Assembly: GCA_017635875.1 (NCBI GenBank)
Contig: JAGBKP010000144.1
Location: 1 to 49,940 of the forward strand
Direction: 5' to 3'
Source: Selenomonadaceae bacterium
GTDB taxonomy: Bacteria; Bacillota; Negativicutes; Selenomonadales; Selenomonadaceae
Length of the DNA stretch: 49,940 nucleotides
Shown: positions 6,766 through 49,650 of the stretch, piece by piece
Layout: each line of letters begins with the position of its first letter
Numbering within the stretch: the first letter of the stretch is position 1
Program-made: the position numbers and the translations under genes
The notes under the pieces: generated by a model
Told to the model about the DNA's origin: nothing
Database searches by the model: none
Seen by the model: the letters and a program-made list of their open reading frames with translations, nothing else

Positions 6766-8271
6766 ATGACGAATGTTTACGACAGATTGAACGATTTTTA
6801 TCTTAAAAATCCGGATGCAAAGTTTTATTTTCAACGGAAAATATTTGAGCGTCATTTAAGAAAATGCGCTTGGAAGGGCGATGATAAAAGCAAGCTGAAT
6901 TTGCGATTTGAACTTCTTTCGCGTATTGTTCTTTTTGCAATAGAAATTGATTTGGATTCTATCTGCGATTTAGTGCCGGAAGATTATTTGGAAATTTTTT
7001 ATAAACTTGCGGAAATAGAAAATAAAAATTTAGATGAAAAAACGGTTTTAAAATATATTAAATTTGTGAAGGAATTGTTTTTGGAAAGAGAGCCTGACGG
7101 CTTTGAAGGAAATATAGAAGAAATAGAATTCTTAAGGATGTTTTTTTACGACGAAGGCAAATTTCATCTCTTAAAAAGAGAAAATAAAAACAGCTATAAA
7201 AGCTGTATAAGACGAGATAAAACATCTTATGAAGAAATGCGGCAAATTGAATTTTTAAAAGAAAATTGGCTTGTAAAAATCAAGGAATATTTTAACAATT
7301 CCATTTTTGAAAAAGATTTAAAACGAGCCTTAACGATGTTTATTAACGGCAAGAAAAAATATGAAAAAGATGAAGAAAGCGAGAAGAAATTCCGCGATTA
7401 TTTCTTGTTTAATTATCGCTTAATCAGAACGGATGAAACTCCGCTTGAATTTTTTTATAAGAGGGAAAAAGAAAATTTAGACGATATTTCAACGCAAATA
7501 ATTGAGGAATATCTAAACTCAAAATTCACGATTTTTTATGTAAAACGAGAGGACGGCGATTCCTTTTTATGCAGGGATTTTTTCCGCGAACGCGAATTTT
7601 TTATTCCCTATTCGTCCGCTGATTTTCCGGAATATAAAAGCATCGTTTTCTCCGCTAATATTGAGGAAGGAACGATAGTAGCCCCTGCTTTTTTAAACGC
7701 TATATTTGCCGAAGAAGGCGAAATGGACAAGATAGTTAAAGAGATAAATTCCGCGTATAAGCTTTACGCCTATCAAGAAAAAAATCCCACTTACGCAAAA
7801 TTTTTTGCAAGGCACAATATGGCGGTTCGTCAAATAATAGCAGAAGTCGCCGTATTTCATAAAACGGACGTAATTCCGGAAGCCGTTGATATTGAAAATA
7901 TAAAAAGCGATTTAAATTTAACGGGGGATTATGAAAAACCAATAAACAAACTTATCAATATAGCGAAAAAAATAGAATTAAGCGAATATTCCATAAAACT
8001 TTTAAAGAAATATTACTCGGATTTTTTAACTAAATCAAAATTTACCAGATGGCAAAACGAAAACGACCTCGCGCTCTTTGCCGTGTTAAAAAATTTTGCG
8101 GAGCTAAACGGAGCAAAAAATTTTTATAAAATCGACGAATATTTCCCTCCCGACTTAGATATTGAAAAACTTCAAATTATGTCGACCGATATAAAAAATT
8201 TATTAAAAAGTGAAACATTTGATCCGCGTTATTTAACGGAAGAGGGATTTTTCAATTTGGTATGCAGTTAA
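6766..8271 (+). CDS. Hypothetical protein, 501 aa, no domain recognised
   Basis: Long uninterrupted ORF in a visibly AT-rich stretch, opposite in orientation to both neighbours. Followed by a bidirectional terminator. Confidence 0.6.
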   Translation: MTNVYDRLNDFYLKNPDAKFYFQRKIFERHLRKCAWKGDDKSKLNLRFELLSRIVLFAIEIDLDSICDLVPEDYLEIFYKLAEIENKNLDEKTVLKYIKFVKELFLEREPDGFEGNIEEIEFLRMFFYDEGKFHLLKRENKNSYKSCIRRDKTSYEEMRQIEFLKENWLVKIKEYFNNSIFEKDLKRALTMFINGKKKYEKDEESEKKFRDYFLFNYRLIRTDETPLEFFYKREKENLDDISTQIIEEYLNSKFTIFYVKREDGDSFLCRDFFREREFFIPYSSADFPEYKSIVFSANIEEGTIVAPAFLNAIFAEEGEMDKIVKEINSAYKLYAYQEKNPTYAKFFARHNMAVRQIIAEVAVFHKTDVIPEAVDIENIKSDLNLTGDYEKPINKLINIAKKIELSEYSIKLLKKYYSDFLTKSKFTRWQNENDLALFAVLKNFAELNGAKNFYKIDEYFPPDLDIEKLQIMSTDIKNLLKSETFDPRYLTEEGFFNLVCS

Positions 8272-16588: not shown

Positions 16589-17461
16589 TCATTCTCCTTC
16601 CGCGAATCCGACGCTTAAATTTATATCGCCGATTTTTGTGGCGGCGGTTATCTTAAACGTGGTAAGTTTTGGACTTGCTATTCTTATGTGATTTCCCGAA
16701 ATAGTGCCGGGCGGCGTAATTCTTAATTCTTTATCCTTAAACACGTCGTTTACGTTCGACGCGCCTCTTCCTATGATGATGTTTACGGCTTCCTCGACGG
16801 AATCCGCCGCTTCTTCGTCGGAGAGTTCCTCGCCCTCTTCGATTCCAAGCATAAGAGACGCGTATTTTTTCATAGTGTCAAAATCCATATGCATTATGGC
16901 GCGTCCCGTGGGATAACCGGTAAGACCGACAATAACGGCGATGCCGTCCACGTCTAAAAATCTGCGCTCGTCCACTTCAAGAGAAACTTCGGCGTGCACT
17001 CCTATCATACTGTAGATGCCTTGTTGAAGCGCTCTTACGAAAGCTTTGGCGTAAGATTCTCTAAGAATCGCAATTTTTCCCACTTCGCTTTGGCAAAGAG
17101 TCATCATAGTTTCTATAAGCTCGTTCGTTGAGATTGGTTTTTGCAAAAAAGAGCTTATGCCGACTTCTCTTCCCGCAGTCATCAGACTTGCGTCTTTCAT
17201 CGCGCTTATCATCACTATTTTAACGGTTGGGTCTATAAGATGTATGCGACGGCTGCATTCGATTCCGTCCGCATCGGGAAGGTTCATATCCATTGTAATT
17301 ATTTGAGGACGCATTTCGCTAAACATTTCAACTGCCTCTGCGACGGTTTTTGCTTCGGCGCACACTTCGAAATTTGTTTTGGCGAGATGTCCTTTTATCA
17401 TAGCGCGACTGACCTTGGAGTCGTCCACTATCATAACTTTGACTTTCTCCATAAATTTCAC
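16589..17461 (-). CDS. Response-regulator receiver domain fused to a CheX/CheC-like phosphatase domain
   Basis: 290 aa. REC domain (VMIVDDS...MDMNLPDADG...K) followed by a CheX-like C-terminal half (IAVIVGLTGYPTGRAIMHMD...EAVNIIIGR). Confidence 0.78.
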   Translation of the reverse strand: MKFMEKVKVMIVDDSKVSRAMIKGHLAKTNFEVCAEAKTVAEAVEMFSEMRPQIITMDMNLPDADGIECSRRIHLIDPTVKIVMISAMKDASLMTAGREVGISSFLQKPISTNELIETMMTLCQSEVGKIAILRESYAKAFVRALQQGIYSMIGVHAEVSLEVDERRFLDVDGIAVIVGLTGYPTGRAIMHMDFDTMKKYASLMLGIEEGEELSDEEAADSVEEAVNIIIGRGASNVNDVFKDKELRITPPGTISGNHIRIASPKLTTFKITAATKIGDINLSVGFAEGE

Positions 17462-17562
17462 CTGCCCAAAATTATCGTCAATATTTTACTCTTCTATTTT
17501 CTACCAAAAATAAAAAATCCCTGCTAATTTTTTTCAAGGTAAATTTTTTATTTTCCTTAACC

Positions 17563-17591
17563 TTGCGAAAACGATAATTTTCATATAAAAT
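17563..17591 (+). promoter_or_regulatory. Putative sigma-70-type promoter of the PLD-NTPase gene
   Basis: TTGCGA, 17-nt spacer, TAAAAT. About 40 nt upstream of the ATG at 17631, which is preceded by GGAGG. Confidence 0.4.
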
Positions 17592-17630
17592 GAGAACATA
17601 TTTCGTCTCGTTGTTTTTGGAGGAAAATCA

Positions 17631-19715
17631 ATGAAAGAGCTTTTTGCGGAGCCTTCTCTTTTTGTTTTGCATAACGGCGCATCTTGCGAATTTACGACTG
17701 ATGAAATATTTGACGCTTCTCGTTTTACAAAATTTTACGGCGTAAGTTATGTGTCAAGTCCTAAATTTTTCGCTGAAACCGTTCGCGATTTTAAAGAAGT
17801 TACGTTTATTTTGGGAATCCCCGATACCGATGTTTCTGGGAAATTCACCGACGCTTTAATAAACATTTTGGCCGAATCAGAAAACGGCGCGCTGTTTTTT
17901 AATTCGCTTTCAGGCGCGGCAAAAAATAAAATTGTCGATGGTTGTATGAATATCAGGTACGGCAGAGCCGGCGTTATGATTCACGACAAAATATATCTCT
18001 TGGCAAACGATGATACGAACGATTACAGGGTAATTATGGGCTCTGCGAATTTTTCCGCATCAGCTTTTAATGCAGAAAACAAAAATTACGAAAATATTCG
18101 GATAGACGATAATAAAGATCTGTATGATATATACAAAAAGCGTTGGGATTATCTTTATTCCGAAACGGAAGATTTTATACCGGAAATTTGCAAAAAGCAA
18201 TATAAGGACACAAAGACACAGATAGTGTTGGACGCGGAAACAAAATTTAATCTTTTGGTGGATAGGTTGGACGAAAATCGCGCAAATCTTATCGTGCCGG
18301 AAAATTATTTACAGGACATTCATAAAGAAACTCTATACATAAAGAAAAAACTTGAAAACGTCGAACAGACAAAGAAACTTTTGGGAGCGGTTCTTTCCGG
18401 CAAACGCAAAGACAATACGTATCGCGTTAAACTAAAGGAAAGCATAATAAAATCAAAACAGGGCATTAAAAATTATTTGGTAAAGACAAACAAGGACAGC
18501 GAAGATTTAAACGCATCACGCGAACTGTTGCTCTCTTCGGACGAAGAATACCTCTATAAAAAAATTAAAAACGAAGACGAGAGCGAAAACGGCGAATTAA
18601 CGTTATACTCCAAACTTGCGACGACAGACGAAATAAAATCCGCGCTTACCAAAATAGACGCTTTTACAAAGGCTTATTACGATTTTGCGATTGTCCCGAA
18701 CGAAGAAATACCGGGTAAAATTTACGAATCCATACTTTACGCATTCACTGCGCCTTTTATTTGGAGACTGAAGCAGGAATACGCGCTTCAGTACGACAGA
18801 GCGTCTGTAGGAGATATTCCTATGTTTTTGGTTATAGGCGGCGTAAGGGAGTCGGGGAAATCTACGCTTTTAAATTTTCTTGCGGGGCTTTTGGGGGAAT
18901 CCGGCGCAGATATTTACGATTACGCAAGAAGTCTGGATAAAGCCGGAAATCTTATGGATATGCTTGAAAGTTCAAATCTTTTGCCGATTATGACGGATGA
19001 AATTTCAAACAGCTTTTTCGGAAAATCTTCAAGCCCAAGAAAAGGAGAAAATTTAGTGAAACTTTTGTCCAATACAGTGCCTGAACATTCTATGGGCACG
19101 CTTATAGGTACGACGAATTACGCCGATTTTTCGTCTGCGGGGCAAGTGATAAGACGAATTTATTATCTTGAAGTAAACAATATGTTCGATTCCAAGAAGA
19201 AAAAGGAGTCGATGAATATTTTAAGAGATTTAAACGATGGTATAAGCGACGCGCTGTTTCGCGATTTTTCCTATCGTTTCGCGACTGAACTCAGAAACAG
19301 GGGCGAGGTCTTTCAAATCGACGATTTTCTTATACTTACGCGGCGTATTTTTAAAGACTACTACAAAGAATGTTCGATGACACCGCCAAAGTATTTCCCC
19401 GAGAAAAGATTTTTGGATTATGAAACCCGAAAAAAACTTGTTTGGAAACAGCTTTATTTTTCCACCGACAAGGAATATTTCAAAGACAACGGCGATATTT
19501 TGCAGGTGAACATCGACGCGCTTTTAAAGAACACCACGGGAAGCGCGCAGAAAAAGAAAAATCAACTCTTTGACTATATGGATGAAACTTGCTGGGCAAC
19601 GGACGCGGGTATAGGAATGTATTGGTTTTTGAAAAAGAAAGAATTTTTCAGATTTATCGAATACGAGCCTTCGTTTATACGCAAAACTCTTGATTTCCTT
19701 AAAATAAAATGGTAG
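17631..19715 (+). CDS. Fusion protein: N-terminal single-HKD PLD-family nuclease domain plus C-terminal SF3-helicase-like P-loop NTPase (candidate defence or mobile-element protein)
   Basis: 694 aa. HKD motif MIHDKIYLLANDD...IMGSANFSASAF (H118, K120, G137-S-x-N140). Walker A GGVRESGKST (403-412), Walker B LLPIMTDE (D456 E457), SF3 motif C LIGTTN (N496), and candidate arginine finger RR (508-509). Confidence 0.6.
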   Translation: MKELFAEPSLFVLHNGASCEFTTDEIFDASRFTKFYGVSYVSSPKFFAETVRDFKEVTFILGIPDTDVSGKFTDALINILAESENGALFFNSLSGAAKNKIVDGCMNIRYGRAGVMIHDKIYLLANDDTNDYRVIMGSANFSASAFNAENKNYENIRIDDNKDLYDIYKKRWDYLYSETEDFIPEICKKQYKDTKTQIVLDAETKFNLLVDRLDENRANLIVPENYLQDIHKETLYIKKKLENVEQTKKLLGAVLSGKRKDNTYRVKLKESIIKSKQGIKNYLVKTNKDSEDLNASRELLLSSDEEYLYKKIKNEDESENGELTLYSKLATTDEIKSALTKIDAFTKAYYDFAIVPNEEIPGKIYESILYAFTAPFIWRLKQEYALQYDRASVGDIPMFLVIGGVRESGKSTLLNFLAGLLGESGADIYDYARSLDKAGNLMDMLESSNLLPIMTDEISNSFFGKSSSPRKGENLVKLLSNTVPEHSMGTLIGTTNYADFSSAGQVIRRIYYLEVNNMFDSKKKKESMNILRDLNDGISDALFRDFSYRFATELRNRGEVFQIDDFLILTRRIFKDYYKECSMTPPKYFPEKRFLDYETRKKLVWKQLYFSTDKEYFKDNGDILQVNIDALLKNTTGSAQKKKNQLFDYMDETCWATDAGIGMYWFLKKKEFFRFIEYEPSFIRKTLDFLKIKW

Positions 19716-19745: not shown

Positions 19746-20768
19746 TTGGAAAAAGATGTTTCAAAACAGGCGGGGTATTTTATCAAATACGGCTTGATTG
19801 TTTTTGTGGGAATTACTCTTATAATTTCATACGCGATATTTTCATATATGGATAAATCCGAAACTTTAACCATACGCGACGCAAAAATCGCGGGTACTTT
19901 CGTCAGTATAAAAGCGCAAGCGAACGGAAAACTTACGGAAATTCGAGTTAAAGACGGAGAAAACGTATCTGCGGGCGACGTACTAGCGACCGTTGAGGTT
20001 GCCGTTACCGAAGACACCATAAAACAGTTGGAGCAAAACGTTGCGCTTGCAAAAGAAAATTTAGAGCAACTTAAAAAGGGACAGGATATAAAGGTGCCCG
20101 TATCAACAGGCGTTGATTTAAGCGCGGCGAATGCGGATTTAGCGAGAGCCGAATCGCGTAAAAATCGTATGGAAGAACTCTTTAAAATGGGCGCGATAAG
20201 CAAGGTGCAAAGAAACGAAGCCGTAGCGGATTACGAGGCGGCAAAAGCGAGAGCGACGGCGAGCGCGCCGACATCTTACCAAACCCTGCATAAAGATACC
20301 GCGCCGGAAATTTTAGAAAGCGCGGCTCTTAATGTGCGTCAAGCGGAAGCCGCTTTAAAACGGGCAAAAGAAGACGCGTCCGCGACTGAAATAACTTCTC
20401 CCATAGACGGCGCGTTTTATTTGGCGAGCGTTGAAGAAGGAAGCGAAATTCACGCAGGCGAGCGGCTTTTTAACATAGGCGACGCTACGAATATGTGGAT
20501 AGAAGCGAGATTAAATTCGGAAACGCTCTCAAAAATCCGTCTCGGAGAACTTGTGACTTACGAGATAAACGGCAAAAAATTATCCGGCACGGTGACCGAA
20601 ATCGAAGAAGAAATAGCGTCAGACGAAAATGCTCCGCTTGCTACGGAGGGGGGCGCGCCAAAAGTGGAGGGGTCAGACGGCAAACGCGCCGTTAAGATTT
20701 CACTCGCGGACGAGGCTCTTGAAAATCTAAAACCCGGCGCGACCGTTTCCGTTACTTTTCGTTCGTGA
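19746..20768 (+). CDS. HlyD/EmrA-family membrane-fusion (periplasmic adaptor) protein with no adjacent transporter
   Basis: 340 aa. N-terminal TM segment, lipoyl-like hairpin (GKLTEIRVKDGENVSAGDVLATVE), a long coiled coil, and a beta-barrel segment (ITSPIDGAFY...GERLFNIGD). TTG start. Confidence 0.75.
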   Translation: MEKDVSKQAGYFIKYGLIVFVGITLIISYAIFSYMDKSETLTIRDAKIAGTFVSIKAQANGKLTEIRVKDGENVSAGDVLATVEVAVTEDTIKQLEQNVALAKENLEQLKKGQDIKVPVSTGVDLSAANADLARAESRKNRMEELFKMGAISKVQRNEAVADYEAAKARATASAPTSYQTLHKDTAPEILESAALNVRQAEAALKRAKEDASATEITSPIDGAFYLASVEEGSEIHAGERLFNIGDATNMWIEARLNSETLSKIRLGELVTYEINGKKLSGTVTEIEEEIASDENAPLATEGGAPKVEGSDGKRAVKISLADEALENLKPGATVSVTFRS

Positions 20769-20861: not shown

Positions 20862-21863
20862 TTGAATTACATAGGTTCAAAATATTCTTTGCTTGATTTT
20901 TTGACGGAAACAATATCTAGCGTAACTGGGTATAAGAGTGGAGATTCATATATTTTTGCAGATTTGTTTGCGGGAACCGGCATTGTCGGACAAACTTTTA
21001 AAAGTATGGGGTGTAAAGTTATTGCAAATGATATTCAATATTACAGTTATACATTAAATAAGCATTTTATTGAGAATGTACCGAAAATGGACAACAGTTT
21101 AACCGATTATTTAAATTCCCTTACCCCAATACAAGGATTTGTATATAATAATTATTGCGCCGGAGGAGATAAAGGCAGAAATTATTTCATTGATGATAAC
21201 GGTATGCTTTGCGACGCTATAAGGAATGAACTTGAAAAATTAAGATTTAACAAAGATATTGACGAAGGAACTTATTTTTATTATCTTGCCAGTTTAATCA
21301 ATTCGATTGACAAATACGCAAATACTGCTTCTGTTTATGGAGCATATTTAAAGCATGTAAAAAAATCTGCGGCAAAACCTTTTAAATTGGAACTGCTTCC
21401 CGTTATAGACGGCGAAAAAGGCAAGGTCTACAACGAAGATATCAATAAACTGATAAAAACCGTTGAGGGAGATGTTTTATATTTAGACCCCCCGTATAAT
21501 TCAAGACAGTATTCGTCAAATTATCATGTTTTGGAAACGATTTCAAGATACGATAATCCAATATTAATCGGTAAAACCGGACTTAGAGATTCAACATCGC
21601 AGAAGAGTAAATACTGTTCCAAAAGAACAGTTGTAGATATGTTTGAAGATTTGATAAAACGCGCTAAATTTAAATATATTTTCCTTTCTTACAATAATGA
21701 GGGTTTAATGGACTTGAACACCATAAAAAACATAATGTCAAAATACGGCAAATATATTATTTTTACCAAAGATTATAAAAGATTTAAGGCGGATAGCGAG
21801 AAAAACCGAAATATTAAAGCAAATTCAACTACCGAATATTTGCATGCTCTGATAAAGGAGTAA
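20862..21863 (+). CDS. N6-adenine DNA methyltransferase, Dam/D12-class (alpha motif order)
   Basis: 333 aa. N-terminal NYIGSK box, AdoMet motif FADLFAGTG (32-40), and catalytic DPPY (209-212). TTG start after AAAGGTG. Confidence 0.85.
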   Translation: MNYIGSKYSLLDFLTETISSVTGYKSGDSYIFADLFAGTGIVGQTFKSMGCKVIANDIQYYSYTLNKHFIENVPKMDNSLTDYLNSLTPIQGFVYNNYCAGGDKGRNYFIDDNGMLCDAIRNELEKLRFNKDIDEGTYFYYLASLINSIDKYANTASVYGAYLKHVKKSAAKPFKLELLPVIDGEKGKVYNEDINKLIKTVEGDVLYLDPPYNSRQYSSNYHVLETISRYDNPILIGKTGLRDSTSQKSKYCSKRTVVDMFEDLIKRAKFKYIFLSYNNEGLMDLNTIKNIMSKYGKYIIFTKDYKRFKADSEKNRNIKANSTTEYLHALIKE

Positions 21864-21865
21864 TT

Positions 21866-22654
21866 ATGGCAAGGTATAATGATTTAGATCCTAAAAAGTG
21901 GAAAGAATATGCGGACATCATAACGGATTCTCTTTGGCTGATAGATAAAAGAGATAATTCCGGAGCGCATAGCGGGGACTATCACGGAAATTTTGTGCCA
22001 CAAATACCGCATCAACTTTTTACAAGATATACAAAAAAAGGCGATTGGATTTTAGATCCATTTGCGGGCAGCGGCACTACCTTAATAGAGGCTCAACGCA
22101 TGGAACGAAATTCCATAGGCATAGAATTATTGCCGAAAGTGGCAAAGAAGGCGCATGAAGCGATTCAAACGGAACATAAGCGAAATATAGTTTCCAAAAT
22201 AATTACAGGCGACAGTAGAAATATTGATTTAAGCGAGTTATTGTCAATTTTTCAAATTAAGAAAGTACAATTTATTATTATGCATCCCCCATATTGGGAC
22301 ATAATTAAATTTTCTGACAATAAAAACGATTTATCAAATACTTTAACTCTTGGCGATTTTTTAGACGCTTTTGGAGAGGTAATTGAGAATACTTCAAAAT
22401 ATTTGGAAAGATACAGATATTTGGCCTGCGTTATTGGCGATAAATACATGAACGGACAAGTAGTGCCTTTAGGCTTCCATTGTATGAATAAGTTTTTGGA
22501 AAAAGGTTTTTTACTAAAGGCTATATTGGTAAAAAACTTCGGAGAAACAAGAGGCAAAGCGGGAAATCAAGGAATATGGCGATATAGAGCCATTGCCAAC
22601 GATTTTTATATCTTTAAACATGAATATATTTTTGTGTTTAAGAAACTGAAGTAA
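21866..22654 (+). CDS. Second DNA methyltransferase of the R-M cassette (amino-MTase; motif I precedes motif IV; catalytic tetrapeptide HPPY)
   Basis: 262 aa. ILDPFAGSGTTLIEA (63-77), GDSRNI, and IIMHPPYWD (137-145). Starts 2 nt after the first methyltransferase gene. Confidence 0.72.
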   Translation: MARYNDLDPKKWKEYADIITDSLWLIDKRDNSGAHSGDYHGNFVPQIPHQLFTRYTKKGDWILDPFAGSGTTLIEAQRMERNSIGIELLPKVAKKAHEAIQTEHKRNIVSKIITGDSRNIDLSELLSIFQIKKVQFIIMHPPYWDIIKFSDNKNDLSNTLTLGDFLDAFGEVIENTSKYLERYRYLACVIGDKYMNGQVVPLGFHCMNKFLEKGFLLKAILVKNFGETRGKAGNQGIWRYRAIANDFYIFKHEYIFVFKKLK

Positions 22655-22658
22655 AATA

Positions 22659-23258
22659 TTATTTGTCTTCTTTCAAATGTCTTTTAAATTCCAGCGGATC
22701 ATACCAATAACAACCTATACAGGCATTTTCTTCGTTGTTGTGATGGGCTTCGCCCGCATAATAACTCATAGGATAACCCAGTTTTTTTGCGTCGTATCTA
22801 ATTTTATTTTTTTTACACTCTTTACAAAATTGTCTTTTAGCATCGTTTGCGGCTTTTGATAAAGGTTGAAAATCCGAAAGTTTTTGATCTTCGTTTTTCA
22901 TTACTCGGCTTTCGTTTTTCATACCGTTTTTATGATCTACTTCCGGATTGGAGGTGCCTAAAACTACACAACGCTGACTTTTTATGACTTTTTTAATGTC
23001 GCTCCTAATATGTTGAGAAAATTCATCATTATTAAAACCGTTTAATCGTATTCTGTCTATACTGTTGCCGGCAGTTATGGATTTATCAAATTCGATAATG
23101 TATTTTTTAGCGAGAGCAGACTCTTTTCTTGCCCAAGACGCACCGTTTCCAAATGTTAGATGCTTGTATTCTCCAACGAATTCAGATATGCTTACCCAGC
23201 GACTTACACCATCTTTATTGGGATTTGCTAATTTTAAAAACAACTCCGTTTTAGTCAT
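22659..23258 (-). CDS. Small HNH (beta-beta-alpha-Me) restriction endonuclease with a Cys4 zinc ribbon
   Basis: 199 aa. EVDHKNGMKNE...FQPLSKAANDAKR (H109, N138), plus CKEC (145-148) and CIGC (180-183). Convergent with the methyltransferases (4-nt gap) and immediately downstream of the C gene. Confidence 0.62.
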   Translation of the reverse strand: MTKTELFLKLANPNKDGVSRWVSISEFVGEYKHLTFGNGASWARKESALAKKYIIEFDKSITAGNSIDRIRLNGFNNDEFSQHIRSDIKKVIKSQRCVVLGTSNPEVDHKNGMKNESRVMKNEDQKLSDFQPLSKAANDAKRQFCKECKKNKIRYDAKKLGYPMSYYAGEAHHNNEENACIGCYWYDPLEFKRHLKEDK

Positions 23259-23259
23259 T

Positions 23260-23469
23260 TCAATCCTCCATAAGTAGCTTATATGCGTCTATATTTAAAG
23301 CCCCCGCAATTTTTTGAATATTGTTGATAGAAACATTCCTTTCTCCTCGTTCGATATCGCTGATGTATGTTCTGTGCAAATCGCATAGTTCAGCGAATTT
23401 TTCTTGCGATATTTCTAAATTTTTGCGATGTTTACGAACATTTTTGCCAAAAATATGCGCCAATTCCAT
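23260..23469 (-). CDS. R-M controller (C) protein, XRE-family HTH
   Basis: 69 aa. LEISQEKFAELCDLHRTYISDIERGERNVSINNIQKIAGAL closely matches the C-protein HTH pattern. Its stop lies 1 nt before the endonuclease ATG. Confidence 0.78.
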   Translation of the reverse strand: MELAHIFGKNVRKHRKNLEISQEKFAELCDLHRTYISDIERGERNVSINNIQKIAGALNIDAYKLLMED

Positions 23470-43641: not shown

Positions 43642-45366
43642 ATGCAGTTTTTCAGAGATTTGAGCGTCAAAGGCAAGCTCCTGTCGCTTGCCGTTATCGC
43701 GGCGATAGGACTCCTCTTTATGGTGCGCTCCGCTTATGTGTCTATGGAAGAATCCAAAACAGACACGGACAGAATGTTCACGCAAAATGTGCGCGCGCTG
43801 TACGCTATCGGCAACTGTCGTCACGCTATGCGCTATATGCAGGGTATGATGCTTATAGCGACTTCATCTAATGATCCGAAGCGCATAAAGGATGTTACCG
43901 CAAAATATGAAACGGGCAAAAAAGAGATACAGACCAACTGGGCGGCTTTTGAGGAACTTGCCAAAAATGACCCCGATATGGCCGAATCCACCGGCGAAGC
44001 AAAAAAAGCTCTCGATACTTACGTAAAAGCCCTTGACTAAGCTATGAGCCTTGCCGGAAACGGCGACGGTCCTGCGGGTCGCGCACATTACGACAAACAC
44101 GGCGCGTCGGTTGCTACGGCTCTCGGCAAACACCTTACATCTTTGTCCGATATAGCGGATAAAGCGGCGGAAACAATAAACAAGCAAAACGAAGAAAAAA
44201 TGGATACGGCGGCGTACACCTCCATTACTTACGGCGTAGCCATCGTTATCGTGCTTACGATAGCCAGCCTTTTCGTAACTCGCGAAATAGTAAGTCCTTT
44301 AAGCATTTTAATAGGCTCTTGCGAAAAGATGAAAGCAGGCGACTTCAGACGTCCCCCTGAAGCAGACAGCTTTAACAGAGGCGATGAATTCGGCACGATG
44401 CAACATCATTTTGCCGCTATGCGCGAAAATATCCGCGCTCTTATGGGCAAAATCGCCTCAAGCGCGGACGAACTTTCGTCTTCCGCTCAAGCCTTAACCG
44501 ACAGCGCGTCGCAATCCGCGCAAGCCTCCGACCAAGTGGCTCATTCCGTCACAAACGCGGCGGGCGCGGTAGTGGAACAGCAACAAAACGTGGCGGACAC
44601 AATGGAATCCGTCGATATTTGCCTTGACGCCATCGGAAGACTTACAAGCGAGTCTAAAGACGTTGCGGCGAACGCCAACCAGTCCGAGCAAAACGCGGTG
44701 CAAGGCGCAAAAGCCATTGAAGAATCGGTTGCGACAATTATGGGACTTGAAAAAATCGTCAACCATTCGGCTGAAACAGTTGATAAACTTGGTCAAAGCT
44801 CCGAAGAAATCGGCACTATCGTAGAAGCAATTTCCTCCATTTCCGAGCAGACAAACTTACTCGCCCTTAACGCTGCGATAGAAGCGGCGCGCGCGGGCGA
44901 ACACGGCAGAGGTTTTGCCGTTGTCGCGGACGAAGTGCGAAAGCTTGCCGAAGAATCGCAAAACGCCGCGTCTAAAATCACAACGCTTATTAACGTTATT
45001 CAGTCCGATACATCAGAAGCCGTCAACTCTATGCGCGAAGGCAGCAAGGCGGTTAAAGAAGGCACACGCTCGGTTGAAGCTCTACGCGATACTTTCGATC
45101 AAATTCGCGTATCGTCGGGCGACGTTGCGGGAAGAGTCCGCGGTATGACGGAAGACCTTTCGGGAGTATCGGAAGAAGCGAACAAGATAAAAGAAAAATC
45201 CGAACAAATTTCAGACAGCGGCGGCAAGGTTTCAACCGAAATGGAAACTGTATCGGCCGCCTCCGAGCAGCAATCCGCCTCATCAAACGAAATCGCCCAC
45301 GCAAGCGATTCCTTGGCGCATCTTGCCTCCGATTTGCAGGATTCTTTGAAGAGATATAAATTTTAA
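43642..45366 (+). pseudogene. Methyl-accepting chemotaxis protein interrupted by one in-frame TAA (44038-44040)
   Basis: ORFs 43627-44040 (TM1 plus a 4HB-like sensor half) and 44044-45366 (rest of the sensor, TM2, HAMP, MA domain with [36 protein letters not shown]) are in the same frame, separated only by TAA-GCT. Confidence 0.8.
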
Positions 45367-45545
45367 ATTTTAATCGGATTTCTCTTCATAGTAAACTTTC
45401 ATTTTTGGTACATAATTCCATTCAATATAATTTTTCATATAGGTTGCGTATATCTTTCAAAACATGACGATCAATTCTTCGATTGTCTAAAGGCGTACCA
45501 AAATAAAAAGAATTATTATACGACCTAACAAAGTAAATTGATTTT

Positions 45546-45893
45546 TTGGGTTTTATGATATATAATTATCAGAAATATATGAGAAAATTGAATGGAATGA
45601 ATTTTATGTTTTATCCTTTTTTATCGCTATCAGACGGAACAGAAATTGTTTATTCCGATTTAAAACAAAAAGATATCAAAAATTATGTAATTGTTAAATT
45701 TGAACGTTGGAATGAAAAGCGAGATGATTTTGACAGTATGGAATGTGAATTGCCTAATGGGAATATGAAAAAAATTATAGGTTTTACGGATGAAGAGGTT
45801 AAGCATTATCATAAGAAAATGATACATCTTCAAGATATGATTCTTGAATGTTCTAAGGAAGATACGGAGATGGAATTATGCAAAAGAATATAA
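45546..45893 (+). CDS. Hypothetical small protein
   Basis: 115-aa ORF in the AT-rich island. The true start is possibly an internal Met (MNFMFYPF...). No recognisable domain. Confidence 0.4.
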   Translation: MGFMIYNYQKYMRKLNGMNFMFYPFLSLSDGTEIVYSDLKQKDIKNYVIVKFERWNEKRDDFDSMECELPNGNMKKIIGFTDEEVKHYHKKMIHLQDMILECSKEDTEMELCKRI

Positions 45894-46120
45894 ATTTTAA
45901 ATACAAATACAATCCTAGTGATTTTGAAGATGAAGAAGAAAAATATTTCAAAGATTGGTTGGATAAAATGTATAAAGGATATGAAGATAAAGACCCAGTA
46001 CAATTTGAAATGTATCGCGCATTTGCAACGGATGAATTAAAGTGTCTATGGAAAAGCGGAGTCATAGCTAAAGTAAAGGCAGATGAAATAAAAGAATATA
46101 TTTGGGGGTTAAAAGTATAA
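45878..46120 (+). CDS. Hypothetical small acidic protein
   Basis: 80-aa ORF overlapping the previous ORF by 16 nt and followed by a strong terminator. Confidence 0.4.
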   Translation: MQKNINFKYKYNPSDFEDEEEKYFKDWLDKMYKGYEDKDPVQFEMYRAFATDELKCLWKSGVIAKVKADEIKEYIWGLKV

Positions 46121-46190
46121 TTGATTTAACTGAAGCAAAAATGTAAAGAAAAACGAATTATAGTCTATAACATTATATAGGTATTGCAAT

Positions 46191-46222
46191 AAAAAAAGAC
46201 TGTCAACCGACAGTTTTTTTTG
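46191..46222. terminator. Bidirectional rho-independent terminator
   Basis: AAAAAAA-GACTGTC-AACC-GACAGT-TTTTTTTT. Confidence 0.8.
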
Positions 46223-46366
46223 CAATATTTACATATTTTCTTCAGATGTTAGAAACTCTAACACGCCATCTTCATAATTAGCATAACCTGCATTGACCAT
46301 TAAGGCTATTAACAAATCAAAATCGTTGCCGCGATTTAATGATAAATTTAAGGAAGGTGAGAAATA

Positions 46367-47467
46367 ATGCAAATAAACTTAATGCATCTCGATATTCCTG
46401 TTGCTTTTCTTAATATCGACGATGAAAGAGGATATATTCACAGCGATATTAAAATTATTACTAAAGAACATTTGCCAATATCAGTCCTAACTTCTAGTAA
46501 TATTGCGCTATCGTTACAAAATTGGGTGGATAATAGAAGCATACCTCTATCCCGAAAAAATCTAAATATGCTTTTAAACGATAAAATAAATTCACCTCGT
46601 ATGCTTTCCTTTAAAAGTCTTGGACTGAATTTATCCGATTGTTATTGGTTTAAACCTGTTGCTCTTGATTTGACTTGGAAACAAGTCAATCTATTTAACA
46701 ACGATTTTACTTCTAAAATTTTTTTAGAAAATAATTTAAAAATAAATCCCGATTATAGTTCTAATGGAGAATTACTAAAATATTGGAAAATAGAAAACGG
46801 AAAAAGATTTCTCTATAAAGAGGGAACTTTGCCTTTTTATCAAGAACCCTTTAATGAGGTTTTTGCTTCAAAACTACTAAAAAAATTAAATTTACCGCAC
46901 ATAAAATACGAATTAACAACAATAGATAATAATATTTATAGCGTATGTGAAACTTTTTCCAACGAAAATACAGAATATATTCCCGCCAATGAAATTTTAA
47001 ATGTCAGAACAAAGTTAAACCACGAAAGCGCATATTTACACTTTATTGAATGTATCAAATCTCTAAATATTCCTATCGGACAGAATTTTTTAGATAATAT
47101 GATTTGTTTTGATTATTTAATTCATAATGAAGATAGGCATTACGGCAATTTTGGTTTTTTGCGTAATGCAGAAACTCTTGAATTTATAAATACCGCTCCT
47201 ATTTTTGATAGTGGAAACAGTCTTTGGTATCATAATCTTACAAAAGATATAAAATTTAAAGACCGCCCCGCTAAACCGTTTAAAGACACACAAGAAAAAC
47301 AAATTAAATTAGTAAAAAATATTTTTCCTGTAAATATTACAAACGAATGGATTAAAGACACTTTATATGAAATTTATTCACAAAACGAATTATTTGACGA
47401 TGAAAGAATTGAAAAATTAACTGACGTTGTAATAACCTTAAAAAGTTTTTTACTAAAAAGGAGTTGA
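46367..47467 (+). CDS. HipA-like serine/threonine kinase (toxin-type) with no adjacent HipB
   Basis: 366 aa. Catalytic loop IHNEDRHYGNFGF (D256-x-H-x-x-N261) and Mg-binding APIFDSGNS (D281), spaced as in the HipA C-terminal domain. N-terminal SLSDCYWFKP-type motif. Confidence 0.72.
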   Translation: MQINLMHLDIPVAFLNIDDERGYIHSDIKIITKEHLPISVLTSSNIALSLQNWVDNRSIPLSRKNLNMLLNDKINSPRMLSFKSLGLNLSDCYWFKPVALDLTWKQVNLFNNDFTSKIFLENNLKINPDYSSNGELLKYWKIENGKRFLYKEGTLPFYQEPFNEVFASKLLKKLNLPHIKYELTTIDNNIYSVCETFSNENTEYIPANEILNVRTKLNHESAYLHFIECIKSLNIPIGQNFLDNMICFDYLIHNEDRHYGNFGFLRNAETLEFINTAPIFDSGNSLWYHNLTKDIKFKDRPAKPFKDTQEKQIKLVKNIFPVNITNEWIKDTLYEIYSQNELFDDERIEKLTDVVITLKSFLLKRS

Positions 47468-47832
47468 AATCAATGTCGGACAAAACATTTAAAAATATAA
47501 AAAAAGCCGCCCCTTTTTTATTCGGAGCGGCTCAAGTATTCGGAAGCGCAATATTTACTTTAATACTTGCAATTTTTTTGCTTGCAAATGTTATAATCGG
47601 AAGTATGAAAATAAATTCTTTATCCGAGCGAATTGAAGCATTGGAAGAAAAAAATCAAAACATTGTCGAAATTCAAAAAGAAATGGAAGAGCAACGAAAA
47701 ACTTTAGAAATTTTGATAGGCGAAAGAAAGCAACAAACAGAAGTAAATAAATTTGACGATGCTCTCGACAAGTTTTTGGAGCGAACCATAAAATTAAGCG
47801 AAGCTATTAAAGAGCAGGAAAATAAGAAGTAA
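47464..47832 (+). CDS. Membrane-anchored coiled-coil protein, translationally coupled to the HipA-like gene
   Basis: 122 aa. One TM segment (FGSAIFTLILAIFLLANVIIG), then a Glu/Lys-rich coiled coil. The TTG at 47464 overlaps the kinase TGA; an alternative ATG lies at 47473. Confidence 0.5.
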   Translation: MKSMSDKTFKNIKKAAPFLFGAAQVFGSAIFTLILAIFLLANVIIGSMKINSLSERIEALEEKNQNIVEIQKEMEEQRKTLEILIGERKQQTEVNKFDDALDKFLERTIKLSEAIKEQENKK

Positions 47833-47850
47833 AATAGACAAATATATAAC

Positions 47851-47891
47851 CGCCAGAAACTAGATTTTATCTAAGTTTCTAGCGTTTTTTT
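47851..47891 (+). terminator. Rho-independent terminator
   Basis: CGCCAGAAACT...AGTTTCTAGCG stem followed by T7. Confidence 0.75.
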
Positions 47892-47905
47892 ATATTTACT
47901 CTGAA

Positions 47906-47934
47906 TTGACAGAATTTTATATAAATGATATAAT
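47906..47934 (+). promoter_or_regulatory. Consensus sigma-70 promoter (TTGACA, 17 nt, TG-n-TATAAT)
   Basis: TTGACA at 47906-47911, a 17-nt spacer ending in TGA, and TATAAT at 47929-47934. This is a perfect match to both hexamers plus the extended -10. Confidence 0.65.
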
Positions 47935-48040
47935 GAAACAAAAATATTGCTTTTTCTTCAAATACAAAAAGGATTTCGCACCCCTTATCTCGAATATATC
48001 TTCAGTAGTAAATCGAGAGAAAGGGTGTGAAACTTCATAT

Positions 48041-49024
48041 ATGGCAGAAAATACAAGCAATACGCCTTTTGATGATGCATACAGAACTTTATCCGCAAAG
48101 GGTACAAGGTTGATGATACCTTTGATAAATTATATGTTTCATCAAAAGTATTCGATGGATGTACCTATAACGCTTTTAAATAATGAAACCAACGAAGATA
48201 ATTCAAAGGCAATTACAGATTCAAGATTTATGGTTGGGGATAATCATTTATATAATATCTTTATTATCGAAGAACAAACAAATTTAGATAAAGATATTCC
48301 ATATCGTTTATACGATTATATGTTAAGGCATGCGCTTTCTCATCTATCTAAAATGTATAAAAACGGGAAAATTATTCTTCCAAGCGTAGGCGTTTTAAAT
48401 CTTCGTGATGACAATAAAGATATAAAACCTATGACATTAGTGCATACAAACAGTGAAATTGATGTTACTATGAAGGACATCAGTATGCAAAATGTTGAAA
48501 ATCTTGAAAAATTAGCGGAAAACAAATTATACTGTTTAATGCCGTTTTACGCTTTTATGATGGAAAAGCGGTTAAGAAATTCCGATACCGAAGAAGCAAA
48601 GAAATTGTATTTGCAAGAACTTAGTAAGTATCGTGATATAATAGAGAAAGCTAAAAATAATGGAGATTTAATTGCTGACGAATCGTATACTTTAGACGAT
48701 ATAAGGCAAATGGTAATAGATGGTCTTAAATTTGAAAAAGATGGTTTAAATACAAAGGAGTTGGAAAAAATGGGAGGAAGAATTGTAGAATTAGAACATG
48801 AAAAAAGATTTAGAGAAGGACAAGAAAAAGCTGAATTTTCTGTGTTCCAAAATTTAATGACTCCAATATTAAAGAAACATAAAAATATTGAAGATGGGAA
48901 AAGATTATGCAATACATTATTACCAAATTGGGGAATGGCAAAGATTAATAGTAAAGTAGCTGAGTTAGCTCATAAACTCAATGTTGATTTAGGTCCCACA
49001 TCTCCGCCGCTTCCCCCACGTTAA
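48041..49024 (+). CDS. PD-(D/E)XK nuclease, Rpn/YhgA-like ('transposase_31'-type) protein
   Basis: NTPFDDAYRTL start resembles the Rpn N-terminal box. The D...EEQ core (ITDSRFMVGD...IFIIEEQT) fits the family pattern as I recall it. ATG at 48041 preferred, because the ORF-track TTG at 47906 is the promoter -35 box. Confidence 0.55.
   Translation: MAENTSNTPFDDAYRTLSAKGTRLMIPLINYMFHQKYSMDVPITLLNNETNEDNSKAITDSRFMVGDNHLYNIFIIEEQTNLDKDIPYRLYDYMLRHALSHLSKMYKNGKIILPSVGVLNLRDDNKDIKPMTLVHTNSEIDVTMKDISMQNVENLEKLAENKLYCLMPFYAFMMEKRLRNSDTEEAKKLYLQELSKYRDIIEKAKNNGDLIADESYTLDDIRQMVIDGLKFEKDGLNTKELEKMGGRIVELEHEKRFREGQEKAEFSVFQNLMTPILKKHKNIEDGKRLCNTLLPNWGMAKINSKVAELAHKLNVDLGPTSPPLPPR
48728..48819 (+). repeat. 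92-nt direct repeat, copy A (inside the Rpn-like gene)
   Basis: About 85 of 92 nt identical to 49052-49143 (AAATTTGAAAAAGATGGTTTAAATACAAAGGAGTTGGAAAAAATGGGAGGAAGAATTGT...). Confidence 0.9.
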
Positions 49025-49294: not shown

Positions 49295-49311
49295 CAAACA
49301 AAAGAAAGGTC

Positions 49312-49605: not shown

Positions 49606-49650
49606 ATTAAAAGAAGCCGAGGATTTGATTCCTAGGCTTCTTTTTTTTGA

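What the first reader, a model, noticed from the sequence alone, without database searches (positions are those of the whole stretch)
17631..19715. PLD-nuclease / SF3-like NTPase fusion protein: candidate uncharacterised single-gene defence (or mobile-element) module
Seen in the translation: one HKD motif (H118-D-K120 ... G137-S-A-N140), as in the Nuc/BfiI-type PLD nucleases that act as dimers. This is followed by an alpha-helical linker of about 200 aa. The C-terminal NTPase carries Walker A GVRESGKST, Walker B IMTDE, the SF3-specific motif C (LIGTTN) and an RR pair. Motif order and spacing resemble D5/P4-type SF3 helicases. From established knowledge, PLD nucleases serve as effectors in several defence systems (DISARM DrmC, Mokosh, and some Type I/III-like enzymes), and NTPase-plus-nuclease fusions are a recurring defence architecture. 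I cannot match this particular N-terminal PLD plus C-terminal SF3 combination to any named system. The gene has its own promoter, is divergent from the chemotaxis operon, and lies about 1.1 kb from a complete R-M cassette (guilt by association).
Basis: partly seen in the sequence, partly recalled or inferred. Interest (0 to 1): 0.8.

Follow-up and report, generated by a model that had tools for sequence, protein, structure and literature searches.

The report
Stand-alone PLD nuclease–SF3 helicase fusion
This gene encodes a previously uncharacterised enzyme that joins a DNA-cutting (PLD) domain to a virus-type ring-helicase motor; it is rare, scattered across distant bacteria and archaea, and often sits beside restriction-modification or BREX genes, so it is most likely a new single-gene system for destroying foreign DNA.

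Summary
ORF 17631-19715 (+) encodes a 694-aa protein. It has an N-terminal single-HKD PLD nuclease domain that just passes the Pfam cut-offs for PLDc_2 and RE_NgoFVII. It has a variable, mostly helical linker and a C-terminal P-loop module. The Walker A, Walker B, motif C and Arg motifs of that module are invariant in 34 homologs. Its predicted fold best matches SF3 primase-helicases (Cch, NrS-1, D5/E5, LTag). The fused architecture is conserved end to end in a rare family (255 clusters at E<=1e-30). The family is patchily distributed across many bacterial phyla and some archaea. Its NTPase half is Pfam PF27394 'Aq_aa27', named after an uncharacterised ORF. The gene has no universal partner, no conserved ends, no integrase or primase neighbour, and no hit in 50,697 phage genomes. 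It matches no PADLOC model. At 12 or more of about 45 independent loci it lies within 10 kb of Type I/II/III R-M, BREX or other defence genes. At 7-8 of these the defence gene is immediately adjacent, usually on the same strand. The best reading is an ATP-driven ring translocase-nuclease that restricts foreign DNA (confidence about 0.55). Function and trigger are untested. I found no paper describing this architecture.

The parts
17563..17591 (+). Sigma-70-like promoter candidate (TTGCGA-17-TAAAAT) in the 169-nt divergent intergenic region
   Evidence: This is a consensus match only; the number of hits in the region is not above the shuffled expectation.
17619..17623 (+). Ribosome-binding site GGAGG, 7 nt upstream of the ATG
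   Evidence: Sequence read.
17631..19715 (+). Complete ORF, 694 aa: PLD nuclease - linker - SF3-like NTPase - C-terminal domain
17631..18170 (+). N-terminal PLD-fold domain (aa 1-180) with one HKD half-site, of the BfiI/NgoFVII/Nuc/Zucchini type
   Evidence: Pfam PF13091 and PF09565 pass their cut-offs. A PDB profile hits MitoPLD, Nuc and NucT. AF2 gives a beta/alpha fold with pLDDT mostly 80-95.
17982..18050 (+). Catalytic motif H118-x-K120 ... G137-S-A-N140. The invariant E154 and D160 follow at 18090-18110.
   Evidence: Invariant or near-invariant columns in alignment A1.
18171..18620 (+). Poorly conserved, mostly helical linker with a small beta insert (aa ~181-330)
   Evidence: AF2 helices at 185-295 with pLDDT 55-80. 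Alignment conservation is low here.
18621..19400 (+). SF3-type AAA+ helicase-like module (aa ~331-590): N-terminal helical bundle, P-loop core and helical lid. This is Pfam PF27394 'Aq_aa27'.
   Evidence: Precomputed PF27394 on all homologs. Foldseek against PDB and viral libraries. C-terminal-only model has pLDDT 88.9.
18840..18863 (+). Walker A, G404-VRES-G409-K410-S411
   Evidence: G409 and K410 invariant.
18984..19001 (+). Walker B, P452-IMT-D456-E457
   Evidence: P452, D456 and E457 invariant.
19101..19118 (+). Motif C / sensor-1, L491-IGTT-N496
   Evidence: T494 and N496 invariant.
19152..19157 (+). R508-R509, candidate arginine finger
   Evidence: R509 invariant. The finger role is inferred from SF3 precedent.
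19416..19712 (+). C-terminal small alpha/beta domain (aa 596-694), possibly a winged-helix-like DNA-binding domain as in Cch/P4/D5
   Evidence: AF2 secondary structure. The Foldseek alignment to Cch spans 389-457 columns. The DNA-binding role is inferred.
20862..23469 (.). Neighbouring context, not part of the gene: an IceA/NlaIII-type Type II R-M cassette (two MTases on +, REase and C-protein on -)
   Evidence: GC is 0.32-0.35, against 0.45-0.47 for the flanking core genes.

Best explanation
The gene encodes a stand-alone, ATP-powered nuclease-motor that restricts foreign DNA. It is effectively a D5/P4/Cch-type primase-helicase in which the primase has been replaced by a BfiI/NgoFVII/Nuc-type PLD endonuclease.

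Proposed mechanism: the SF3 module assembles into a ring (hexamer) on DNA, probably helped by the C-terminal domain. ATP hydrolysis drives translocation or unwinding. Assembly brings the single-HKD N-terminal domains of neighbouring subunits, or of two rings, into the dimer that a PLD active site requires. Metal-independent cleavage via a phospho-histidine intermediate is therefore coupled to oligomerisation on a target.

Shown: domain identities, conservation of both catalytic centres, solitary gene organisation, patchy horizontal distribution, and repeated physical linkage to R-M/BREX.

Inferred: oligomerisation, PLD pairing, the DNA substrate and the defence phenotype. How self is spared is unknown. 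Candidates are recognition of replication forks or free ends of invading DNA, or of a modification state.
For: Both active sites are invariant across relatives with 25-84% identity to the query. The PLD subfamily is the restriction-endonuclease/Nuc type.

The motor's best structural matches are SF3 helicases. In PDB these are Cch at E 3e-5 and 1.3e-5, PriRep1, MPXV E5, VACV D5, LTag and NrS-1. In the viral library there are 100 hits at E<=1e-3, nearly all primase-helicases. There are also weak sequence hits to 'DNA primase' PHROGs on the P-loop.

The full-length fusion is conserved in a family of 255 clusters at E<=1e-30. The family is rare and phylogenetically patchy: 50 loci in 185,579 species genomes, spanning Bacillota, Campylobacterota, Spirochaetota, Nitrospirota, Thermotogota and archaea. 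There is no conserved partner gene.

Defence neighbours are frequent:
- BrxL/PglZ/PglX directly upstream in L018
- Type III Mod-Res adjacent in L048, L036 and pATS1, and 1.6 kb away in L062
- Type I hsdMSR adjacent in L061 and L053, and 3.7 kb away in L035
- Type II MTase + MjaI REase 28 nt downstream in L060
- NlaIII-type R-M 1.1 kb away in the window
- a PLD-helicase and a PD-Lambda-4-like protein in L025
- GmrSD about 7.3 kb away in L003

About 8 of 13 such systems are the immediately adjacent gene, against roughly 12% expected if they were spread evenly over +/-10 kb (rough binomial 3e-5). Six of them are on the same strand.

The gene's GC (0.387) is below that of the flanking core genes (0.45-0.47). 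Some copies are decayed or truncated (L047, L053, L055, L056), as is typical of accessory genes. There are no hits in 50,697 phage genomes.
Against: There are no functional data of any kind. The protein matches no PADLOC v2 model. That makes it novel, but it also means nothing validates the defence role.

Roughly two thirds of loci show only housekeeping neighbours. My 'far' control set (6 kb or more away) also contained defence genes, so I have no clean background rate.

In the window's own species the gene is present and nearly identical in all 8 places shown, out of 24 contigs read. There is no presence/absence polymorphism at that scale.

SF3 helicases are hallmarks of mobile-element replication. 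On an Arcobacter plasmid the gene sits next to parAB and 3.6 kb from Rep.

Fold-match TM-scores are low (0.3-0.4), and generic AAA+ proteins (RuvB, RFC, Msp1) follow closely.
Confidence: 0.55

Rival explanations
1. It is a mobile-element maintenance or competition factor, not a host defence gene. On this reading it is a plasmid/ICE-borne helicase-nuclease used for element replication, processing or incompatibility. The chromosomal copies would be remnants of integrated elements.
For: The motor is of the SF3 primase-helicase type typical of mobile elements. 16 plasmids carry relatives. In Arcobacter p82 the gene is divergent from parAB and near Rep and a DnaB-like helicase. L062 has a weak Rep3_C hit and a UvrD helicase nearby. 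A PrimPol-helicase lies 0.6 kb from a truncated copy in L047.
Against: The plasmids have their own Rep and helicase. Most are large and non-mobilizable. No integrase, primase or relaxase is conserved next to the gene. There are 0 phage hits. Most copies sit alone between housekeeping genes. Defence genes are themselves commonly carried on plasmids.
Confidence: 0.15
2. It is a Rep-like initiator or single-gene selfish element. The PLD would act as a covalent (phospho-histidine) nickase coupled to an SF3 helicase, analogous to the HUH+SF3 Rep proteins of parvoviruses and CRESS-DNA viruses. It would mobilise or replicate a DNA segment.
For: The domain order (nuclease then SF3) mirrors Rep. PLD chemistry proceeds through a covalent intermediate (established knowledge; also stated in 10.1101/2025.07.10.664194). 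The gene inserts as a compact single-ORF unit between unrelated genes.
Against: Nucleotide homology between the window and its 84%-identical relative stops at the ORF borders (17730-19714), so there are no conserved ends. No terminal inverted or direct repeats flank the gene beyond chance-level 14-16-mers. There is one copy per genome in the scan. No circular or viral records carry it.
Confidence: 0.07
3. It is a DNA repair or replication-fork-processing enzyme with a cellular housekeeping role, for example resolving stalled forks or protein-DNA adducts in the manner of Tdp1.
For: Neighbours are housekeeping genes in most loci. Ku is directly downstream in L044/L045. The gene is fixed and intact in the window's species. 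There is a weak sub-threshold Tdp1 Pfam hit.
Against: The family is extremely rare and patchy (50 loci in 185,579 species), with no conserved synteny and with pseudogenised copies. That pattern is not expected of a core repair function. The closest PLD families are restriction enzymes and Nuc, not Tdp1.
Confidence: 0.1
4. It is an auxiliary or back-up nuclease effector that works together with neighbouring methylation-based systems (R-M, BREX), rather than an autonomous system.
For: All the clearly identified immediate neighbours are methyltransferase-based systems: Type I, II and III R-M and BREX. Six are on the same strand with gaps of 28-574 nt. Auxiliary HKD nucleases in BREX loci are described in PMC12839542.
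Against: Most copies have no such neighbour. The partner type varies, so no specific protein-protein dependence is plausible. R-M systems are simply the commonest defence systems.
Confidence: 0.1

Closest known systems
D5/P4-alpha/Cch/PriRep1/NrS-1-type SF3 primase-helicases of viruses, plasmids and SCCmec
   Same: The order of Walker A, Walker B, motif C (sensor-1 Asn) and Arg is the same. There is a helical bundle before the P-loop core and a small C-terminal domain. These are the best fold matches in both PDB and viral libraries.
   Different: The N-terminal primase/PrimPol is replaced by a PLD nuclease. There is no significant sequence match to any Pfam SF3 family in my library. The gene is not in replication modules and is absent from phage genomes.
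Single-HKD PLD nucleases: BfiI, NgoFVII/NgoAVII/CglI R-proteins, Nuc, NucT, Zucchini/MitoPLD
   Same: It has the H-x-K ... G-S-x-N ... E catalytic pattern and one half-site per chain, so dimerisation is needed (established for Nuc and BfiI, from my own knowledge). Pfam RE_NgoFVII and PLDc_2 pass their cut-offs. A PDB profile matches them.
   Different: Those enzymes carry a B3-like DNA-recognition domain (BfiI, NgoAVII) or none, and NgoAVII/CglI use a separate ATPase protein. Here the motor is fused and is of the SF3 type. There is no cognate methyltransferase.
HKD + SF2-helicase restriction proteins (SauUSI-type Type IV, PbeA, Type I/III-like enzymes, BREX-related type-2 helicase; PADLOC 'PLD_Helicase')
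   Same: An N-terminal HKD endonuclease is fused to an NTP-driven DNA motor in one polypeptide, found in defence islands (PMC10853773, PMC12839542). One such protein lies 6.4 kb from the L025 homolog.
   Different: The motor is a RecA-like SF2 translocase, not a ring-forming AAA+/SF3. There was no PADLOC match of the query to those models.
McrBC and BrxL-HKD (ring AAA+ motor plus nuclease)
   Same: The logic is the same: an oligomeric AAA+ ring that loads on DNA is coupled to an endonuclease. BrxL variants carry a C-terminal HKD nuclease (PMC12839542).
   Different: McrB is a GTPase with a separate PD-(D/E)xK McrC. BrxL is MCM/Lon-like and has its HKD at the C-terminus. The query matches neither.
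HUH-SF3 Rep proteins (parvovirus NS1/Rep, CRESS-DNA virus Rep)
   Same: An N-terminal nuclease that can form a covalent intermediate is followed by an SF3 helicase.
   Different: The nuclease fold and chemistry differ (PLD phospho-His versus HUH phospho-Tyr). No origin-like repeats or conserved element ends are present.
Azaca (ZacABC) and Mokosh, the PLD-containing nuclease-NTPase defence systems
   Same: A PLD nuclease is paired with an NTPase in anti-phage defence (10.1101/2025.07.10.664194).
   Different: There is only a marginal ZacB hit, confined to the HKD motif (E 0.002). Their NTPases are different (Mokosh uses an RNA helicase), and Azaca is multi-gene.

Membership tests
PLD superfamily, single-HKD nuclease branch (Nuc/BfiI/NgoFVII) | Sequence-profile membership above the curated threshold | tested here: met
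   PF13091 scores 29.0 against a cut-off of 27. PF09565 scores 24.7 against 23.8. Both are marginal for the query, but they are precomputed on most homologs.
PLD superfamily, single-HKD nuclease branch (Nuc/BfiI/NgoFVII) | Catalytic H-x-K and G-S-x-N, conserved | tested here: met
   H118, S138 and A139 are invariant. K120, G137 and N140 are conserved in 90% or more of sequences. One clade (P0038) has H-x-R and G-S-A-D.
PLD superfamily, single-HKD nuclease branch (Nuc/BfiI/NgoFVII) | The Asp of H-x-K-x4-D | tested here: not met
   Position 125 is A/S/K/G/N across the family. The Asp is not catalytic in Nuc-type enzymes (my own knowledge), so this does not exclude activity.
PLD superfamily, single-HKD nuclease branch (Nuc/BfiI/NgoFVII) | Homodimerisation to form one active site; metal-independent DNA cleavage | not testable with these tools
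   Only monomer modelling was available.
SF3 helicases (AAA+) | Motifs A, B and C in order, plus an Arg finger after motif C | tested here: met
   G409-K410, D456-E457, T494/N496 and R509 are invariant.
SF3 helicases (AAA+) | Motif B' / DNA-binding beta-hairpin between motifs B and C | tested here: inconclusive
   F463, G472, E473 and K477 are conserved in that segment. However, AF2 models a loop and a helix there, not a clear hairpin.
SF3 helicases (AAA+) | Fold closest to solved SF3 helicases | tested here: met
   Top PDB hits are Cch, PriRep1, E5/D5, NrS-1 and LTag (E 1e-5 to 1e-3). The viral library gives 100 hits, mostly primase-helicases. TM-scores are only 0.3-0.4, and generic AAA+ proteins follow.
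SF3 helicases (AAA+) | Sequence-profile membership in a curated SF3 family | tested here: not met
   There is no significant Pfam or NCBIfam SF3 hit. The only hit is phrog_1139 'DNA primase' at E 0.004. The domain has its own Pfam entry, PF27394.
SF3 helicases (AAA+) | Hexamer formation and 3'-5' helicase activity | not testable with these tools
   -
Any named anti-phage system in PADLOC-DB v2.0.0 | Match to a system protein model | tested here: not met
   The only hits are ZacB at E 0.002 on 39 residues and Csx3 at 0.008 on the P-loop.
Defence-island gene (guilt by association) | Recurrent co-localisation with known defence systems in unrelated genomes | tested here: met
   12 or more of about 45 independent loci have a defence system within 10 kb, and 7-8 have one immediately adjacent. 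There is no clean background control.
Classical R-M restriction endonuclease | A conserved cognate methyltransferase | tested here: not met
   No neighbour is conserved across loci. MTases are present only in a minority and are of different types.
   There are 0 hits in 50,697 phage records. No integrase or primase cluster was found. 16 of 72,556 plasmids carry a relative.
Transposon / selfish single-gene element | Conserved termini, terminal repeats, multiple copies | tested here: not met
   Homology ends at the ORF. Only chance-level repeats are present. There is one locus per genome.

The most novel reading that the evidence does not exclude
The family is a domesticated viral or plasmid replication protein turned against invaders. 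On this reading an SF3 replicative-helicase module still recognises foreign replication origins or forks. Instead of priming DNA synthesis, it delivers a PLD nuclease that nicks or covalently attacks the replicating DNA. This would be a Rep-like (nuclease + SF3) enzyme using phospho-histidine chemistry. It would also be the first defence system whose sensor is a hijacked replicative helicase.
Probability: 0.12. Interest if true: 0.85.

Novelty: new variant of a known kind. Interest (0 to 1): 0.6.

Why it matters
Single-polypeptide nuclease-NTPase enzymes are a recurring theme in prokaryotic immunity. The known motors are SF1/SF2 helicases, ABC/OLD ATPases, McrB-type GTPases and MCM/Lon-like BrxL. 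An SF3 primase-helicase module with its primase swapped for a PLD endonuclease would add a new motor class. It would also be a clear example of a mobile-element replication protein recruited for, or against, defence.

The family is compact (about 690 aa, one gene), thermophile-rich, and has two easily mutated active sites. That makes it experimentally tractable and potentially useful as an ATP-gated, metal-independent nuclease. It would also give a function to Pfam PF27394, which is currently named only after an uncharacterised Aquifex ORF.

Tried and rejected
1. A single-sequence phmmer search against PDB gave no hits. The profile search hit only the PLD half.
2. A literature search for 'Aq_aa27'/'PF27394' returned only irrelevant URL-fragment matches.
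3. A search for a conserved partner gene found only synteny among close Selenomonadales relatives, plus a 3-gene cassette confined to L007/L014/L054. That cassette has a 293-316-aa protein upstream and a 69-aa protein downstream, and neither has a Pfam or PADLOC hit. I rejected these as universal components.
4. I considered HlyD, 30 nt downstream in the window, as an operon partner and rejected it. It is absent from every other locus, its GC is core-like (0.47), and one conspecific strain carries an ~820-nt internal deletion in it.
5. The 'far neighbour' PADLOC control (6 kb or more away) was meant as background, but it contains PglX, a PLD-helicase, JetA and PycC. Islands extend that far, so it is not a valid control.
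6. I searched for an empty site in conspecific contigs. All 8 places shown carry the gene.
7. I considered an oriC-related role, because the gene sits at a strand-switch and GC-skew minimum, and because Selenomonadales homologs sit next to rnpA-yidC-jag. I saw no DnaA boxes by eye in the 169-nt intergenic region, and the family is far too rare for this. I rejected the idea.
8. Modelling the C-terminal half alone raised model confidence (pTM 0.88). It did not raise TM-scores to solved SF3 structures above ~0.4.
Full report
OBSERVATION. A GGAGG site lies 7 nt upstream of the ATG. A sigma-70-like consensus match lies at 17563-17591, but promoter-like hits in the region are not above the shuffled expectation, so this is weak evidence. 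Pfam recognises the N-terminal region as a PLD domain. PLDc_2 scores 29.0 bits against a cut-off of 27, and RE_NgoFVII scores 24.7 against 23.8, both on aa 98-176. The C-terminal half gives only sub-threshold P-loop hits in Pfam and NCBIfam. It also gives a weak hit to a 'DNA primase' PHROG, E 0.004 on aa 402-460. PADLOC gives nothing significant.

FAMILY. A word-indexed search found 39 relatives, all carrying PLD plus a precomputed Pfam domain, PF27394. That domain is called 'Aq_aa27', after an uncharacterised Aquifex ORF. It is absent from my local Pfam copy. An exhaustive profile search found 1001 representative clusters at E<=1e-3, 645 at <=1e-10 and 255 at <=1e-30. Nearly all of the top 150 are 650-850 aa and match profile positions ~1-690 in one stretch, so the fusion is the ancestral architecture.

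In a 34-sequence alignment (25-84% identity to the query) the invariant residues are H118, S138, A139, E154, D160, G409, K410, P452, D456, E457, T494, N496 and R509. K120, G137 and N140 are conserved in 90% or more of sequences. One correction is needed: the eponymous Asp of H-x-K-x4-D is not conserved (A125 here). The linker (aa ~185-330) is the least conserved part. Public sources name members only 'phospholipase D family protein', 'HKD family nuclease' or 'ATP-binding protein'. A member of the query's own 90% cluster sits on a contig of exactly 49,940 bp, and another member is annotated to a Selenomonadaceae MAG. The window is therefore most likely a Selenomonadaceae MAG contig.

STRUCTURE. 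AF2 with the family alignment gave mean pLDDT 82.8. The domains are a PLD-fold domain (aa 1-180), a helical linker with a small beta insert, a helical bundle plus P-loop core plus lid (aa ~330-590), and a small alpha/beta C-terminal domain (596-694). A PDB sequence profile matched only the PLD part, to MitoPLD/Zucchini, Nuc and NucT.

Foldseek of the whole model against PDB put SCCmec Cch helicase first (E 3e-5). PriRep1, MPXV E5, VACV D5, SV40 LTag, NrS-1 and ASFV PrimPol followed, interleaved with generic AAA+ proteins. Against the viral library there were 100 hits at E<=1e-3, overwhelmingly D5/P4-type primase-helicases, PrimPol-helicases and VirE. A separate model of aa 330-694 (pLDDT 88.9, pTM 0.88) again gave Cch, NrS-1, LTag and E5/D5 first, with RuvB and RFC next. 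TM-scores are modest (0.3-0.4).

I therefore treat 'SF3-type' as the best-supported class, not as proven membership. The simplest description is a primase-helicase whose primase has been replaced by a PLD endonuclease.

GENOMIC CONTEXT. In a scan of one genome for each of 185,579 species, only 50 loci encode a relative. They are spread over Selenomonadales, Bacillales, Thermoanaerobacterales, Desulfurellales, Arcobacter, Spirochaetota, Thermodesulfovibrio, Gammaproteobacteria and two archaeal MAGs. This is a rare, patchy, horizontally transferred pattern.

Neighbours differ in almost every locus, including the 84%-identical relative. Clustering neighbour proteins found no universal partner. 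An iterative HMM search confirmed that the only candidate partners are confined to three closely related loci. Nucleotide homology between the window and its closest relative covers only 17730-19714 (77% identity), and the flanks are unrelated. No meaningful flanking repeats exist.

The gene's GC is 0.387, against 0.45-0.47 for the flanking CheY-CheX and HlyD genes and 0.32-0.35 for the R-M cassette. Some homologs are truncated. In conspecific metagenome contigs (identical CheX protein; 24 contigs read, 8 places shown) the gene is always present, with 0-1 amino-acid differences. It is therefore stably maintained in this lineage.

DEFENCE ASSOCIATION. The explicitly identified defence neighbours are as follows.
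- L018: BREX PglX, PglZ and BrxL. BrxL ends 90 nt before the gene, on the same strand.
- L048: Type III Mod-Res ending 226 nt upstream.
- L036: a Type III-like Mod 120 nt downstream, and HEC-05 further on.
- L053: Type I hsdM-S-R 123 nt downstream of a truncated copy.
- L061: Type I hsdMSR ending 574 nt upstream.
- L060: MTase + MjaI-type REase 28 nt downstream, with a Gp49/HTH pair upstream.
- L062: Type III Mod-Res 1.6 kb downstream.
- Plasmid pATS1: Type III Mod (E 1e-134), Res (E 1e-126) and a UvrD-like helicase, adjacent and divergent.
- L035: Type I MTase 3.7 kb away.
- L027: a REase_II/PDC-S02-like protein 2.1 kb away.
- L025: a full-length PLD-helicase 6.4 kb upstream and a PD-Lambda-4_A-like protein 386 nt downstream.
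- L003: GmrSD about 7.3 kb upstream.
- The window: an IceA/NlaIII-type R-M 1.1 kb downstream.

Bulk PADLOC tallies of 274 near and 150 far neighbours also list BrxD, a Type I specificity subunit, Type IIG, JetA, PycC, SoFic and several PDC candidates, which I could not assign to loci.

In total, 12 or more of about 45 independent loci have a recognised system within 10 kb. About 8 of 13 of those systems are the immediately adjacent gene. Under an even spread over +/-10 kb I would expect about 12% to be adjacent, giving a rough binomial of 3e-5. This is approximate, because I inspected adjacent genes more closely than distant ones. I lack a clean background, because the far set is itself contaminated by the same islands.

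tblastn found no relative in 50,697 phage records. Only 16 of 72,556 plasmids carry one, mostly large non-mobilizable replicons. On pATS1 the gene adjoins a Type III R-M, and the plasmid's Rep is 7 kb away. On Arcobacter p82 it is divergent from parAB, with Rep and a DnaB-like helicase 3.6 kb away. No integrase or primase is recurrently adjacent. The criterion is not met.

LITERATURE. Full-text searches found PLD nucleases in defence only in other pairings. Azaca and Mokosh are described in 10.1101/2025.07.10.664194. HKD+SF2 helicases such as PbeA and Type I/III-like enzymes are described in PMC10853773. BrxL-HKD and BREX-related type-2 helicases are described in PMC12839542. Tandem PLD domains occur in Type III-C CoCoNuTs (PMC10542128). 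D5-type SF3 modules are described as hallmarks of mobile elements, and inactive versions occur in HerA/FtsK capture systems (PMC10853773). I found no description of a PLD+SF3 fusion. Absence from this library is not proof of absence.

MECHANISM (inference). Single-HKD PLD nucleases must dimerise to form an active site, and they cleave without metal through a phospho-histidine intermediate. This is established for Nuc and BfiI, and the chemistry is summarised in the paper read. SF3 helicases act as hexameric rings. A fusion would naturally make nuclease activity conditional on ring assembly on DNA, and would couple it to ATP-driven translocation. That is the logic of McrBC or BrxL-HKD in a single chain.

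The poorly conserved linker and the C-terminal domain are candidates for target or trigger recognition. How self DNA is spared is unknown. Rival readings are a plasmid maintenance factor, a Rep-like nickase-helicase, a repair enzyme, and an auxiliary effector of R-M/BREX. They are less supported for the reasons given under each.

VERDICT. This is an uncharacterised, conserved, single-gene PLD-SF3 family. It is best classed as a new variant of the nuclease-NTPase defence theme. Interest is 0.6: it is a solid, testable candidate with an unusual motor, but it is not conceptually unprecedented and has no functional evidence.

Noticed in passing
window 20862-23469: A complete low-GC (0.32-0.35) Type II R-M cassette. 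It has a D12-class Dam-like MTase, an N6_N4 MTase, an IceA/NlaIII-family REase (PF05315, E 5e-73) and an HTH controller protein. It was probably acquired separately from the PLD-SF3 gene.
   Followed up: partly
window 19746-20768; L071 3728-3829: A solitary HlyD-family membrane-fusion protein has no adjacent transporter partner and sits between the PLD-SF3 gene and the R-M cassette. One conspecific strain (L071) has an ~820-nt internal deletion (window 19757-20576), which brings the R-M cassette within ~430 nt of the target gene.
   Followed up: yes
window ~17000-18000; L003/L010/L011: The gene sits at the window's strand-switch and cumulative GC-skew minimum. In other Selenomonadales the homolog lies next to rnpA-yidC-jag, which is normally origin-proximal. 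No DnaA boxes were seen by eye in the 169-nt intergenic region. The significance is unknown.
   Followed up: partly
L007 657-3924; L014 9006-12257; L054 8950-12259: A clade-specific three-gene cassette: a Cys/His-rich 293-316-aa protein upstream, the PLD-SF3 gene, and a 69-aa protein downstream. Neither partner has a Pfam or PADLOC match.
   Followed up: partly
P0038 / L008 / L065 (Limosilactobacillus): A divergent lactobacillus clade (771 aa, annotated 'ATP-binding protein') has H-x-R and G-S-A-D instead of H-x-K and G-S-A-N. This resembles the HRD variant reported for BrxL-HKD in PMC12839542. Pfam no longer detects its PLD domain.
   Followed up: no
L047 9848-11122, L053 9986-10666, L055 9965-10603, L056 1718-2746: Truncated or fragmented copies of the gene occur in several genomes. 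One (L053) lies directly upstream of a Type I R-M, and one (L047) lies 0.6 kb from a PrimPol-helicase gene.
   Followed up: partly
window 45000-49940 and 6766-8271: Other very low-GC segments (0.28-0.32) may be further acquired DNA. ORF 46367-47467 has a weak match to the H. pylori CtkA kinase (E 8e-7). ORFs 6766-8271 and 47906-49024 have no PDB sequence match.
   Followed up: partly
L044 7728-8495, L045: In two Thermodesulfovibrio-related loci a Ku homolog (PF02735, E 7e-48) lies 31-43 nt downstream of the PLD-SF3 gene on the same strand.
   Followed up: no
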